From an uncultured Haloferula sp. (GTDB taxonomy: Bacteria > Verrucomicrobiota > Verrucomicrobiia > Verrucomicrobiales > Akkermansiaceae): a DNA stretch of 64,000 nucleotides. Below the pieces are notes generated by a model, which searched no databases, was not told the origin of the DNA, and saw only the letters and a program-made list of their open reading frames with translations. Each line of letters opens with the position of its first letter. Position 1 is the stretch's first letter. A program made the translations under genes and the position numbers. The DNA lies in assembly GCA_965652295.1 (NCBI GenBank), contig CBFGTS010000003.1, positions 192,001-256,000 of the forward strand, given 5' to 3'. Shown piece after piece: positions 59,801-61,377 of the stretch.

Positions 59801-61377
59801 TAATCGACGGCCAATCGCTGCGCGAGCTCGCCGAGTACATCGACTGGACGCCATTCTTCCATGCCTGGGAGATCCGCGGCGTGTGGGACAGGGAAACCAA
59901 GACCCTCAAGACCCGGAACGAGGAAGGTGCGAAGCAAGCCCAGGAGCTGTTTGCCGAGGCGCAGGAGCTGCTCGAACAGATCATCGCCGAGAAGCGCTTC
60001 ACCGCCCGCGGCATCTACGGATTTTTCCCCGCCAATGCCGAAGGTGACGACCTCATCGTCTGGACCGACGACACCCGTAGTAGCGAGCGAGCGCGTCTCC
60101 ACACGCTGCGCCAGCAGCTCGCCAAGGAAACCGACAAGCCGCACCTGGCGTTGGCTGATTATGTCGCACCGAAAAAAGAACTCTCCCCTACCAGTGGCAT
60201 GACCGTCCCGGTCATGAACCCCACGGGCGTGACCAAACGCGAAGGCTCCAACCTCCCCCACTGGTCCGACCAAGGTTCCACCTACGCCGTCACGTTCCGT
60301 CTTGCTGACGCGCTCCCTCAGGAGGCCCTCCGCCGCTACCTCGATGCGAAGACCGAAGCCTTCAACTCCCTCAAGCATGCCCGATCCACCGGCGACGCCG
60401 CAATGGTCGAGCAAGCGGAGCACAATCTCTTCGAAGCCTTCTCCGAGCATCTTGAGCAAGCGCTCGAAGCAGGCCATGGTGCCTGTCTGCTGCAGGAACC
60501 CGAACTGGCCGAACTCGTCCAAAATGCCCTCAAGCACTTCGACGGCGAACGCTACGACCTGCTCCATTGGGCGGTGATGCCGAATCACGTCCACGTGATC
60601 GTCCGGCCGAAAGAGGAGCACGCATTGCCTGAGATCCTCCACTCCTGGAAATCGTTCACCGCGCATGAGATCAACAAGTGCCTTGGCAAGAGGGGCGACG
60701 TCTGGCAGGACGAATCCTATGACCACCTGATCCGCGGGCCGAAGGACTATGGAAACCAAGCCGCCTATCTGGAAAGGCATTCAACCCGCTGGAAGAGCGA
60801 TCGTATCGCCAAGGATGAGAACGCTGCTCAGGTTCATGACCGGGACGGTCATTCCACTGGTCACCAGGCGGACTACATCGGGGCTTTCGTCGTCGGCATC
60901 CACGGGGCGGACGAGTGGGCGAAGGAGGTCTCCGAGAAGGAGACCGACCCTTACAAATCGATCATGATCAAGGCCGTCGCCGACCGCCTCGCCGAAGCCT
61001 TCGCCGAGCTGCTCCACCACCGCGCGCGGGTCGAGTGGGGCTACGAGCGGCCGAACGAGTTCAACCACAACGAACTCATCAAAGAGCTCTACCGCGGCAT
61101 CCGCCCGGCTCCCGGCTACCCGGCGCAGCCGGACCACACGGAGAAGCCGGTCTTGTTCGATCTACTGGAAGCATCGGAGAAAACCGGCGTCACGCTCACC
61201 GAAAGCTGTGCGATGCACCCCGGTGCGGCCGTTTCCGGACTGATGTTCTCGCATCCGGAGAGCCGTTATTTCGCCATCAGCGAGCTGCAGAAGGACCAGG
61301 TCGAGGACTACGCCCGACGCAAGGGGTGGTCGATCGAGGAAGCCGAGAAATGGCTCGGCCCGTGGCTCGGATACTGA
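56842..61377 (+). CDS. metH: Cobalamin-dependent methionine synthase with in-frame RAYT insert
   Basis: [61 protein letters not shown]. Confidence 0.97.
60190..60861 (+). mobile_element. REP-flanked RAYT (HUH Y1 transposase) element inserted in frame in metH
   Basis: 31-bp IRs at 60190-60220 and 60831-60861 (1 mismatch); encodes LPHW...[10 protein letters not shown]...WAVMPNHVH...SWKSFTA...[11 protein letters not shown]...Y. Confidence 0.92.

What the first reader, a model, noticed from the sequence alone, without database searches (positions are those of the whole stretch)
60190..60861. REP-flanked HUH transposase (RAYT) inserted in frame inside methionine synthase
Seen: in the AdoMet-reactivation domain, the short linker between LADYVAPK and ADYIG (E. 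coli APKLSGKADYIG, from memory) is expanded by 224 codons. The insert starts and ends exactly on codon boundaries. It is bounded by 31-bp inverted repeats (ACCAGTGGCATGACCGTCCCGGTCATGAACC, 1 mismatch), each a GTGG tetranucleotide plus CATGACCG-TCC-CGGTCATG hairpin, i.e. a REP. Both REPs are read as protein ([20 protein letters not shown]). The insert keeps MPNHVH (HUH), [11 protein letters not shown] and a Tyr at the catalytic position (AYLERH instead of the usual YI..NP), has an in-frame ATG at 60214 and has no stop. Deleting IR to IR gives [15 protein letters not shown] in frame. Known: RAYTs are normally free-standing genes next to REPs. Inference: a mobile element that persists in a housekeeping gene without being an intein or self-splicing intron. 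It could be tolerated as a fused domain, excised at DNA level by its own HUH chemistry, or removed or bypassed at RNA level through the 31-bp stem.
Basis: partly seen in the sequence, partly recalled or inferred. Interest (0 to 1): 0.92.

Follow-up and report, generated by a model that had tools for sequence, protein, structure and literature searches.

The report
Transposase gene translated inside methionine synthase
A complete hairpin-flanked DNA-cutting transposase with no stop codon of its own sits in frame in a surface loop of this soil bacterium's methionine synthase, and it appears to be the enzyme that looks after about fifty copies of the same hairpin repeat scattered through the genome.

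Summary
metH (56842-61377, 1511 aa) carries a 224-codon, stop-free, in-frame insert (60190-60861). It is bounded by a 31-nt inverted repeat whose arms are REP hairpins. The insert is a RAYT-type HUH/Y1 transposase with the HUH motif and the catalytic Tyr kept.

It is not a chimera: orthologous cassettes and two independent metagenomes hold it.

- The same REP occurs 49 times in this genome. It is abundant almost only in relatives that carry this RAYT clade.
- In those relatives the clade is always embedded, in MetH or in a U32 peptidase.
- Of 33 genus MetH genes, 28 have the loop empty.
- The insert core (dN/dS 0.08-0.12) and the MetH part downstream of it (0.06-0.10) are both under purifying selection.
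- AlphaFold gives a confident separate RAYT-like domain on floppy REP-encoded linkers.

Best reading: a REP-RAYT-REP cassette that is translated through as an extra MetH domain and serves the genome's REP population. There is no evidence for DNA excision or RNA removal.

This scan has noted the same habit before on other DNA (IspG and AlaS in this genome, and other hosts elsewhere). I found it in none of seven literature searches. MetH is not strictly essential here, because a metE is present.

The parts
56842..61377 (+). metH ORF, 1511 aa, cobalamin-dependent methionine synthase carrying the insert
   Evidence: NCBIfam NF007024 scores 1815.9 bits (cut-off 1497). All five Pfam MetH modules are present. 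It is the only Met_synt_B12 locus in the genome.
60190..60220 (+). Left arm of the inverted repeat, holding the REP (core GTGG + 8-bp stem + TCC loop at 60194-60216). Translated as [10 protein letters not shown]. Contains in-frame ATGs at 60199 and 60214.
   Evidence: The genome-wide REP consensus is CCTRYCA GTGG CATGACCG TCC CGGTCATG AAMG, so the REP probably starts near 60183.
60221..60830 (+). RAYT (HUH/Y1 transposase) core, with no start or stop codon of its own
   Evidence: Pfam Y1_Tnp 30.7 bits, above the cut-off of 23. NCBIfam REP_Tyr_transpos 66.3 bits, below its cut-off of 80. The best PDB sequence hit is 4ER8 TnpA-REP. AF2 gives a domain with pLDDT 83-96, and Foldseek matches 4ER8_A at E 1.1e-5, rmsd 2.9. 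dN/dS is 0.08-0.12.
60586..60594 (+). HUH motif (His-Val-His, MetH residues 1249-1251)
   Evidence: Aligned to the LPEHMHCIW motif of 4ER8. Conserved in the clade alignment.
60766..60768 (+). Putative catalytic Tyr (insert residue 193), in the clade-specific motif AAYLERHS rather than the usual Y-x-x-x-N-P
   Evidence: Aligns with chain residue Y115 of 4ER8. The Tyr is conserved in all 25 rows, while NP is replaced by H-x in the MetH/U32 clade.
60831..60861 (-). Right arm of the inverted repeat, holding the inverted REP (core 60835-60857, 1 mismatch). Translated on the + strand as [10 protein letters not shown].
   Evidence: The DRDGHAT peptide and the REP are conserved across the MetH-resident clade.
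60862..61377 (+). C-terminal half of the MetH reactivation domain, downstream of the insert
   Evidence: Pfam Met_synt_B12 profile positions 117-273 continue directly after positions 2-117 upstream of the insert. dN/dS is 0.10 against G018 and 0.06 against G039.
56466..56749 (.). Cluster of the same REP family in the intergenic region just upstream of metH. Intact REPs at 56466-56488 (+) and 56727-56749 (-), with two degenerate copies between.

Best explanation
The insert is a complete REP-RAYT-REP cassette. In structure it is a REP doublet (REPIN) whose spacer encodes its own HUH/Y1 tyrosine transposase. It resides in a permissive 3-residue surface loop of the MetH reactivation domain.

It has no stop codon and no promoter or ribosome-binding signals that I could assign. 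It is therefore transcribed and translated as part of MetH. The two REP arms encode floppy linkers, and the RAYT folds as a separate domain hanging off a still functional MetH.

From there, or after release, the HUH/Tyr active site acts on single-stranded copies of the cognate REP hairpin (GTGG guide, 8-bp stem, TCC loop). In this way it maintains or spreads the roughly 50 REPs and 14 short REP doublets of the genome.

Any frameshift or nonsense mutation in the transposase would also truncate MetH, so selection on the host gene shields the transposase frame from decay.

Over evolutionary time the cassette is mostly inherited or exchanged together with metH sequence, is sometimes lost, and rarely jumps to another gene (MetH to U32 peptidase within this genus).

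Shown: anatomy, frame, selection, REP co-occurrence, patchy distribution, host switch.
Inferred: translation-through, catalytic activity on REPs, the shielding logic.
For: **Anatomy**
- A 224-codon stop-free in-frame insert with a 31-nt IR.
- HUH and the Tyr aligned to 4ER8.
- Y1_Tnp above its cut-off.

**Fold**
- AF2 on a 46-row alignment gives the insert domain pLDDT 83-96, with linkers of pLDDT below 50.
- Foldseek returns MetH reactivation domains (E about 1e-20). Among the transposase (HUH) hits, 4ER8_A ranks first: rank 19 overall, E 1.1e-5, TMt 0.57, rmsd 2.9.

**Selection**
- Insert core: pN/pS 0.145/0.696 (dN/dS 0.08) against G018, and dN/dS 0.12 against G039.
- REP codons have dS of only 0.16, which points to conservation at the DNA level.
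- MetH downstream of the insert: dN/dS 0.10 and 0.06.
- The Met_synt_B12 profile is covered 2-117 and 117-273 on either side of the insert.

**Cognate REPs**
- 49 REPs against 0 in the control, with compensatory stem variants and 14 doublets of 101-122 nt.
- Across 40 genomes, the six with this RAYT clade have 49, 86, 70, 49, 22 and 12 REPs.
- The 34 without it have 20 (G045), 7, 4, or 2 or fewer; 24 of them have 0.
- The only cognate RAYT in G000 is the metH one. The next paralogue is 46% identical.

**Mobility**
- The same REP ends, read in the same frame, flank 58-63% identical RAYTs inside a U32 peptidase in G004, G011 and G049.
- In the RAYT tree, U32 is nested in a 42-row clade (99% SH-like support) that is otherwise 39 MetH rows.

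**Patchiness**
- Of 33 genus MetH genes: 2 carry this clade, 1 another RAYT clade, 1 a REP doublet, 28 are empty and 1 is undetermined.
- The host tree needs 3 changes for the 3 clade-A carriers.

**Generality**
- 3083 proteins of 393-2000 aa match the insert at E <= 1e-10.

**Not an artefact**
- Contigs from two further studies cover the insert. Contigs in X3 and X4 cross the right junction, though none with 31 letters on both sides.
Against: - There is no protein-level evidence. The RNA evidence is weak: three 148-151-nt contigs from RNA libraries, two inside the insert with 0 differences and one just upstream in metH with 2. None is at a junction, and DNA carry-over is not excluded.
- MetH is not strictly essential, because a metE is present at C1:485972-487774. 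The 'shield' therefore rests on MetH being useful, not indispensable.
- NCBIfam's RAYT equivalog cut-off is not reached (66.3 against 80).
- The whole MetH/U32 clade has replaced the canonical Y-x-x-x-N-P helix motif with Y-x-x-[RK]-H. Catalysis may be altered or lost.
- G045 has 20 REPs but no cognate RAYT.
- The genomes compared are kin, so the co-occurrence amounts to about four independent contrasts, not 40.
- The cassette ends are inverted (REP and iREP). The single-strand peel-and-paste route known for IS200/IS605 does not explain how the whole cassette moves.
- Published TnpA-REP enzymes do not bind iREP (PMC8266576, passages read).
- The trees are FastTree with SH-like support only. 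Synonymous sites are near saturation. The AF2 pTM of 0.53 says nothing about how the two domains sit together.
Confidence: 0.68

Rival explanations
1. Inert or exapted passenger. The cassette is translated through, but the RAYT domain no longer acts on REPs. It is kept only because deleting it imprecisely would damage MetH, or because it gained some MetH-related role.
For: The canonical NP helix motif is lost in the whole MetH/U32 clade. The NCBIfam RAYT score is below its cut-off. The RAYT tree clusters strongly by host gene (30 label changes against a shuffled mean of 133), as a vertically kept domain would. G045 keeps 20 REPs without a cognate RAYT.
Against: A dN/dS of 0.08-0.12 on the insert core is far below what a mere spacer needs. 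HUH and Tyr are kept in all 25 aligned rows. The REP arms are conserved at DNA level, with dS 0.16 against about 2 in the core. REP abundance tracks presence of the clade. The cassette moved to a U32 peptidase with its ends intact.
Confidence: 0.15
2. DNA-level excision. The RAYT cuts its own flanking REPs and removes the cassette in some cells, restoring a short metH allele (a reversible switch).
For: 28 of 33 genus MetH genes are empty, and the carriers are scattered on the host tree. Loop sequences of the empty alleles are unusually variable in the subclade where cassettes occur, which could be footprints. IS200/IS605 relatives excise precisely (recalled).
Against: If excision preceded expression there would be no need to keep frame and openness, yet these are kept here and in the long proteins found. 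No trustworthy excised joint was seen. The single joint 60218->60819 (one contig in X4, 27 letters on its shorter side) leaves both REPs and is best explained by a REP doublet elsewhere. Contigs cannot show rare variants.
Confidence: 0.1
3. Separate expression. Translation starts at an ATG inside the left REP (60199 or 60214) and gives a RAYT fused to the C-terminal 171 residues of MetH. This happens alongside or instead of the full-length fusion.
For: Both in-frame ATGs are intrinsic to the REP sequence. A gene caller started a homologue (P0012) at exactly this Met.
Against: No stop separates the RAYT from the MetH C-terminus. The ATGs lie inside a stable hairpin. No promoter or ribosome-binding evidence was obtained. 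It does not explain why the upstream frame is also kept.
Confidence: 0.1
4. RNA-level removal or bypass through the 31-bp terminal stem.
For: Folded alone, the 692-nt RNA pairs the two arms in both the MFE and the centroid structure (z = -4.3).
Against: No Rfam family matched, including no intron, at E <= 0.1 in 55500-62500. No bacterial pathway is known that would religate such a cut (recalled). Frame conservation and purifying selection on the insert would be unnecessary. Translation coupled to transcription would melt the stem.
Confidence: 0.03
5. Assembly chimera.
For: Logan contigs break at both REPs, which shows that the repeats are hard to assemble.
Against: Orthologous cassettes sit at the same loop in G018, G039 and many metagenome proteins. 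Contigs from two other studies cover the core with 0-1 differences. X3 record 14 (60210-60910) and X4 record 23 (60823-60883) cross the right junction, and records from both reach 22 nt into the left REP from metH.
Confidence: 0.01

Closest known systems
REPtrons: RAYT / TnpA-REP genes flanked by REP and inverted REP (E. coli TnpA-REP, PDB 4ER8; group 3 Stenotrophomonas maltophilia REPtron with a 23-nt REP)
   Same: The same enzyme fold and HUH + Tyr. The gene is flanked by REP and inverted REP. The cognate REP is present in tens of copies, partly as doublets. The REP build of 4-nt tag + 8-bp perfect stem + 3-nt loop = 23 nt equals that described for S. maltophilia (PMC8266576, passages read).
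   Different: Known RAYTs are free-standing single-copy genes. This one has no stop codon, lies in frame inside another gene and is read as part of that protein. The tag is GTGG, not GTAG. The Y-motif lacks NP. Quentin et al. [quoted passage not shown]
Inteins with nested homing endonucleases
   Same: A selfish nuclease-coding insert, in frame and stop-free inside conserved housekeeping proteins. It is patchy among close relatives, recurs at the same site, and is protected because imprecise loss harms the host gene.
   Different: No Hint or splicing domain and no conserved splice-junction residues. The insert is presumably never removed from the protein. The enzyme is an ssDNA HUH transposase with its own genome-wide repeat population.
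Intragenic REPs and Rickettsia palindromic elements (RPEs)
   Same: Palindromic repeats inserted in frame and translated inside functional genes, including tRNA synthetases and, in Verrucomicrobia, Opitutus terrae genes (PMC3733652, passages read). G049 carries just such a REP doublet in this very MetH loop.
   Different: Those inserts are 20-80 aa of repeat only. Here the repeat pair encloses the transposase itself.
IS200/IS605 insertion sequences
   Same: Y1 HUH transposase acting on ssDNA hairpins, with a 5' tetranucleotide as a likely guide. Foldseek also returns IS608 and ISDra2 TnpA.
   Different: IS200/IS605 ends are not inverted repeats, and the elements disrupt genes rather than being read through. 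NCBIfam transpos_IS200 scores 22 bits against a cut-off of 55.

Membership tests
RAYT / TnpA-REP (HUH Y1 transposase, class 2) | HUH metal-binding motif | tested here: met
   H-V-H at 60586-60594 aligns to the H-M-H of 4ER8. Kept in 25 of 25 aligned homologues.
RAYT / TnpA-REP (HUH Y1 transposase, class 2) | Single catalytic Tyr on the C-terminal helix | tested here: met
   Insert Y193 aligns with chain residue Y115 of 4ER8. That Y115 is the catalytic residue is recalled, not from a call.
RAYT / TnpA-REP (HUH Y1 transposase, class 2) | Canonical Y-motif Y-[IV]-x-x-N-P | tested here: not met
   It reads YLERHS here, and Y-x-x-[RKAN]-H in the whole MetH/U32 clade. Other embedded and short homologues keep NP. 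The motifs of the published subclasses were seen in PMC6006769 Table 1.
RAYT / TnpA-REP (HUH Y1 transposase, class 2) | Curated HMM thresholds | tested here: inconclusive
   Pfam Y1_Tnp 30.7 bits, above its cut-off of 23. NCBIfam REP_Tyr_transpos 66.3 bits, below its cut-off of 80.
RAYT / TnpA-REP (HUH Y1 transposase, class 2) | Gene flanked by REP and inverted REP, with the same REP multicopy in the genome | tested here: met
   49 copies against 0 in the control, and 14 short doublets.
RAYT / TnpA-REP (HUH Y1 transposase, class 2) | Fold like the solved RAYT | tested here: met
   Foldseek 4ER8_A: E 1.1e-5, TMt 0.57, rmsd 2.9 over 179 columns, on an AF2 domain of pLDDT 83-96.
RAYT / TnpA-REP (HUH Y1 transposase, class 2) | Free-standing gene with its own start and stop | tested here: not met
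   No stop codon. It lies in frame within the 1511-aa metH ORF.
RAYT / TnpA-REP (HUH Y1 transposase, class 2) | Cleaves and joins single-stranded cognate REP | not testable with these tools
   Needs biochemistry.
Intein | Hint splicing domain and conserved junction nucleophiles | tested here: not met
   No Hint or intein family among the Pfam hits at E <= 0.01. Junction residues differ among G000, G018, G039 and G047.
IS200/IS605 insertion sequence | IS200-type TnpA HMM and non-inverted subterminal hairpin ends | tested here: not met
   NCBIfam transpos_IS200 scores 22 bits against a cut-off of 55. The ends are a 31-nt inverted repeat.
Cobalamin-dependent methionine synthase MetH | All modules present and equivalog HMM above cut-off | tested here: met
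   NF007024 scores 1815.9 against 1497. Five Pfam modules are present, with Met_synt_B12 covered 2-273 in two pieces around the insert. Activity was not tested.

The most novel reading that the evidence does not exclude
The embedded RAYT behaves like a non-splicing intein with homing. Translated inside MetH, it nicks single-stranded DNA at or near the empty loop or at REPs, and so promotes copying of the cassette, with some flanking metH sequence, into empty metH alleles.

This would explain three observations:
- One 3-residue loop has been colonised by two old RAYT lineages and by a REP doublet within a single genus.
- Carriers are scattered on the host-gene tree.
- Synonymous divergence between G000 and G018 doubles in a block that runs from about 215 codons upstream to exactly the right end of the cassette.

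The element would then be a new class of selfish gene, one that uses host reading frames both as its expression system and as its shield against decay.
Probability: 0.15. Interest if true: 0.95.

Novelty: new variant of a known kind. Interest (0 to 1): 0.84.

Why it matters
RAYTs are regarded as domesticated, single-copy, free-standing genes that tend a population of REP or REPIN repeats.

Here the only cognate RAYT of a live-looking REP population has no gene of its own. It is a translated insert in a metabolic enzyme. Thousands of relatives in Verrucomicrobiota and Planctomycetota do the same in tRNA synthetases, IspG, MetH and others.

If the domain is active, this is a third way, besides inteins and in-frame palindromic repeats, for selfish DNA to live inside essential proteins. 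It would show:
- that a transposase can outsource its promoter, start codon and stop codon to a host gene;
- that it can use selection on the host to protect its own frame.

It also bears on three practical matters:
- Annotation: these proteins are labelled plain 'methionine synthase' or 'valine--tRNA ligase'.
- The origin of REPINs: the cassette has exactly the architecture of a REP doublet with the transposase as spacer.
- Protein engineering: these are natural maps of loops that tolerate a 200-residue domain.

Tried and rejected
1. **Excised allele in public reads.** The only joint near the insert was 60218->60819, seen in one contig of run X4 with 27 letters on its shorter side. It leaves both REPs, and a REP doublet elsewhere fits it as well, so it is not counted.
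2. **Transcription.** Three contigs of 148-151 nt from RNA libraries X18 and X19 lie on 59988-60138, 60239-60389 and 60363-60510. None bridges a junction and DNA carry-over is possible, so this is only a hint.
3. **REPs commonly intragenic in G000?** They are not. The median stop-free frame spanning a REP is 225 aa, against 546 aa at 2000 random places. In the eight longest frames, Pfam domains, where found (4 of 8), lie away from the REPs, which look like 5' intergenic read-through.
4. **Structured RNA or intron.** No Rfam match at E <= 0.1 in 55500-62500.
5. **Frameshifted canonical C-terminus.** Reading 60770-60830 by eye in the other frames gives an 'NP' two residues out of register and a stop. 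I judged this coincidental.
FastTree was used instead.
7. **Literature.** Seven full-text searches and passages of PMC6006769, PMC3733652, PMC8266576 and PMC11796333 gave no description of a RAYT embedded in frame in a host gene. PMC11796333 was a false hit (an author name). Supplementary tables of these papers were not opened. Additional file 3 of PMC3733652 (intragenic REPs) and Figure S1 of PMC6006769 (long proteins discarded) might bear on priority.
8. **** was an empty script, and **** was a mis-sized query.
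Full report
**1.

- The window carries one uninterrupted ORF, 56842..61377 (+), of 1511 aa.
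- NCBIfam calls it methionine synthase (NF007024, 1815.9 bits, cut-off 1497). Pfam finds all five MetH modules.
- The Met_synt_B12 (reactivation) domain is split. Profile positions 2-117 lie before the insert and 117-273 after it, with a 224-codon insert at 60190-60861 between them.
- The insert begins and ends on codon boundaries and has no stop.
- The repeat finder gives a 31-nt inverted repeat, 60190-60220 and 60831-60861, 97% complementary. Each arm is GTGG followed by an 8-bp stem with a TCC loop.
- In E. coli MetH (1MSK) the same place is a 3-residue gap between ..LADFVAPK (chain residue 154) and KADYIGAF.. (158).

**2. The insert is a RAYT-type HUH/Y1 transposase**

- Alone, the insert scores 30.7 bits on Pfam Y1_Tnp (cut-off 23).
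- It scores 66.3 bits on NCBIfam REP_Tyr_transpos, below that model's cut-off of 80. It scores only 22 bits on transpos_IS200 (cut-off 55).
- Its best match among solved structures is E. coli TnpA-REP, 4ER8 (E 0.0014). HVH aligns to HMH, and insert Tyr193 aligns to chain Tyr115.
- AlphaFold2 on a 46-row alignment of the MetH C-terminal 581 residues gives a confident separate domain for the insert (pLDDT 83-96). It is joined by two segments of pLDDT below 50 that include the REP-encoded peptides. Mean pLDDT is 74.5 and pTM 0.53.
- Foldseek against the PDB returns MetH reactivation domains (3IVA, 6BDY, 1MSK; E about 1e-20). For the insert it returns 4ER8_A first (E 1.1e-5, TMt 0.57, rmsd 2.9), then IS608, ISDra2 and IS200 TnpA.
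- One departure: the usual Y-x-x-x-N-P helix motif reads AAYLERHS here. This holds throughout the MetH/U32 clade, which has Y-x-x-[RKAN]-H, while other embedded and short homologues keep NP.

**3. The hairpins are a genuine REP family, and this is its cognate transposase**

- The pattern GTGGCATGACCGNNNCGGTCATG (up to 2 mismatches) occurs 49 times in the 4.37-Mb genome, against 0 for the reversed control.
- The copies share a longer consensus, CCTRYCA-GTGG-CATGACCG-TCC-CGGTCATG-AAMG. They show compensatory stem variants such as CACGACCG/CGGTCGTG and CATGATCG/CGATCATG.
- Fourteen copies form convergent doublets of 101-122 nt with unrelated spacers. The metH cassette has the same topology, with the RAYT as the spacer.
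- A further cluster lies just upstream of metH at 56466-56749.
- REPs are mostly extragenic. The median spanning open frame is 225 aa, against 546 aa at random places.
- The genome holds five other matches to the insert protein. The best is 46% identical and none has these REP ends, so the metH copy is the only cognate RAYT.

REP counts against presence of this RAYT clade (at least 58% identity), over 35 genus genomes and 5 others of the order:

| Group | Genomes | REP count |
|---|---|---|
| With the clade | G000, G018, G004, G011, G049, G039 | 49, 86, 70, 49, 22, 12 |
| Without the clade (34 genomes) | G045 | 20 |
| | G043 | 7 |
| | G001 | 4 |
| | 7 genomes | 1-2 |
| | 24 genomes | 0 |

G039's genus-mate G029 has 0. 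These genomes are kin, so this amounts to about four independent contrasts. G045 is an exception. It is close to G018 on the MetH tree, so it may have lost the cassette recently.

**4. In every carrier the cognate RAYT is embedded, and it has changed host gene**

- G018 and G039 carry the cassette in the same MetH loop.
- G004, G011 and G049 carry it between the Peptidase_U32 and DUF3656 domains of a U32 peptidase.
- There it has the same REP sequence at both ends, read in the same frame (GMTVPVMN ... HDRDGHAT), and a second tandem REP on the left.
- In a FastTree of 253 RAYT domains cut from 240 proteins, the three U32 rows are sister (99% SH-like support) to G000, G018 and P0012. This group is nested in a 42-row clade (99%) that is otherwise 39 MetH rows. 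A jump from MetH to U32 is the simplest reading.
- Across the whole tree, domains cluster by host gene: 30 label changes, where 18 is the minimum and the shuffled mean is 133. Residence in a given host gene is therefore long-lived, and switches are rare.

**5. Distribution at the MetH loop**

State of the loop in the 33 genus genomes with a MetH match (of 35 searched):

| State of the loop | Genomes | Number |
|---|---|---|
| This clade (A) | G000, G018 | 2 |
| A different RAYT (B) | G047 | 1 |
| 68-nt in-frame doublet of another REP variant | G049 | 1 |
| Short empty loop of 4-11 residues | | 28 |
| Cut by a contig end | G010 | 1 |

- G047's RAYT is 41% identical and has the canonical YILENPAKAGL motif and other ends. 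It is 60% identical to a second MetH-resident clade.
- On a tree of MetH with insert columns removed (31 rows, 636 columns), G000 groups (95%) with the empty G021, G041 and G008. G018 groups (99%) with the empty G003, G046 and G045. G039 lies elsewhere. The tree therefore needs three changes.
- In metagenome proteins, other MetH genes carry a RAYT at the linker before the reactivation domain, or two RAYTs at once.

**6. Selection** (Nei-Gojobori)

| Region | Comparison | pN | pS | dN/dS |
|---|---|---|---|---|
| Insert core | G000-G018 | 0.145 | 0.696 | 0.08 |
| Insert core | G000-G039 | | | 0.12 |
| MetH downstream of the insert | G000-G018 | | | 0.10 |
| MetH downstream of the insert | G000-G039 | | | 0.06 |

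- The 20 REP-encoded codons have dS of only 0.16, which points to conservation at the nucleotide level.
- The low ratios downstream mean that the C-terminal half is kept as protein in carrier lineages.
- Synonymous sites are near saturation, so the ratios are rough. Even so, pN is far below pS throughout.
- In 75-codon windows between G000 and G018, pS is 0.22-0.46 over most of the gene (one window, 301-375, reaches 0.55). It is 0.55-0.71 in the block 901-1350 and falls to 0.30-0.34 in the first window after the insert. This fits import of the cassette together with upstream metH sequence by recombination. Lower codon bias in that region is an alternative.
- GC3 is 0.75 in the insert against 0.86 in the rest of metH.

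**7. Not an artefact, and the limits of the read data**

- Ten of the 19 listed public runs hold half or more of the sampled words of 59900-61200.
- Contigs of two studies other than the likely source cover the insert core with 0-1 differences. Their contigs cross the right junction (X3: 60210-60910; X4: 60823-60883) and reach 22 nt into the left REP from metH. They break at the REPs, as repeats make them do.
- Three contigs from RNA libraries match 59988-60138, 60239-60389 and 60363-60510, with 2, 0 and 0 differences. This is only a hint of transcription.

**8. How general it is**

- 3083 cluster representatives of 393-2000 aa, and 6427 of 123-392 aa, match the insert at E <= 1e-10.
- Hosts among the best 120 long matches, assigned from their Pfam columns:

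| Host | Number |
|---|---|
| MetH | 46 |
| ValRS | 31 |
| LeuRS | 7 |
| N4/N6 methylase | 6 |
| IspG | 5 |
| AlaRS | 4 |
| No other domain | 4 |
| U32 peptidase | 3 |
| DUF1156 | 3 |
| Class-I synthetase fragments | 3 |
| DUF5107 | 2 |
| Glycosidase, Rad3 helicase, Sua5, MmeI, Mur ligase, acetate kinase | 1 each |

- The MetH share is inflated because the query came from MetH.
- Source names on these proteins include Haloferula, Luteolibacter, Verrucomicrobiota, Planctomycetota and Sedimentisphaerales.
- In this genome the same kind of cassette sits in frame in IspG and in AlaRS. The AlaRS copy has a perfect 27-nt IR.
- Of 22 long frames tested from this genome and 40 relatives, all had recognisable host domains. 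Y1_Tnp reached E <= 1e-5 in 17 of the 22.

**9. Earlier notes of this scan**

- After I had found the IspG and AlaS cases, the scan's notebook showed that both had been reported from this genome. The same habit had been reported from other genomes in metH (another site), leuS, alaS, priA and purH.
- Those notes agree with what I see. They are not independent evidence.

**10. Literature**

- Seven full-text searches gave no description of a RAYT embedded in frame in a host gene.
- Passages of Quentin et al. [quoted passage not shown] They also say that REPs can insert in frame within tnpA-REP genes and other genes (PMC6006769).
- Di Nocera et al. 2013 describe in-frame intragenic REPs, including in tRNA synthetases and in Opitutus terrae (PMC3733652).
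- Corneloup et al. 2021 describe a 23-nt group 3 REP of the same build. They also show that TnpA-REP does not act on iREP, and that changing GTAG to GTGG redirects cleavage to CC (PMC8266576).
- I did not open the supplements.

**11. Verdict**

- The best-supported mechanism is translation-through of a REP-RAYT-REP cassette as an extra, separately folded domain of MetH. This domain remains the working transposase or nuclease for the genome's REP population, and its frame is guarded by selection on metH.
- That guard is weaker than for a truly essential gene, because a metE is present.
- DNA excision, an internal start and RNA removal are not supported, but only experiments can exclude them.

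Noticed in passing
window 56443-56841: The roughly 400-nt intergenic region just upstream of metH holds a cluster of the same REP family. There are intact copies at 56466-56488 (+) and 56727-56749 (-), and two degenerate hairpins between them. No Rfam riboswitch or other family matched there.
   Followed up: partly
L076 (G049) 1446-1513: In a genus relative the same MetH loop holds a 68-nt in-frame doublet of a different REP variant (GTGG + CTGAGGCT-TCC-AGCCTCAT, and its inverted partner), with no transposase. It is either a REPIN insertion or what is left after loss of a RAYT.
   Followed up: partly
G000:C17:81112-83865 and G000:C17:90105-93701 (L002, L006): IspG and AlaRS of the same genome each carry an in-frame, stop-free RAYT cassette of other clades. 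The AlaRS one is flanked by a perfect 27-nt inverted repeat. Both were already reported by this scan.
   Followed up: partly
P0002, P0003, P0005 (MetH); P0010, P0011 (IspG); P0014 (AlaRS); P0024, P0033 (DUF1156): Some metagenome proteins carry two RAYT domains in one host protein. In MetH, one sits at the linker before the reactivation domain and one in the loop studied here, and they belong to different RAYT clades.
   Followed up: partly
P0043 (1915-aa metagenome MetH): Besides a weak Y1_Tnp match before the reactivation domain, this MetH has a Pfam Zeta_toxin-like domain between the two B12-binding modules. MetH linkers seem to accept other inserted domains too.
   Followed up: no
L050 (G011) 230-418: The U32 peptidase ORF that carries the cognate cassette also contains a further REP doublet. 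It apparently lies in frame inside the DUF3656 domain: the Pfam match spans 174 residues for 106 profile positions.
   Followed up: no
L066 (G018), L067 (G010): A RAYT domain is fused to the C-terminus of CinA (651-653-aa frames). This is an end-fusion rather than an internal insert.
   Followed up: no
window 59542-60891 (MetH residues 901-1350): Synonymous divergence between G000 and G018 is about twice the gene average in a block that ends at the right end of the cassette. The GC3 of the insert (0.75) is lower than that of the rest of metH (0.86).
   Followed up: partly
G000:C1:485972-487774: A cobalamin-independent methionine synthase (MetE, Meth_synt_2, 498 bits) is present, so MetH is not the only route to methionine in this genome.
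   Followed up: partly
genus relatives G017, G005, G044 and others: Fifteen genus genomes form a separate MetH clade with open frames of only about 640-990 aa around the reactivation domain and a fixed loop PQGAGK. They may encode a shorter or split MetH.
   Followed up: no
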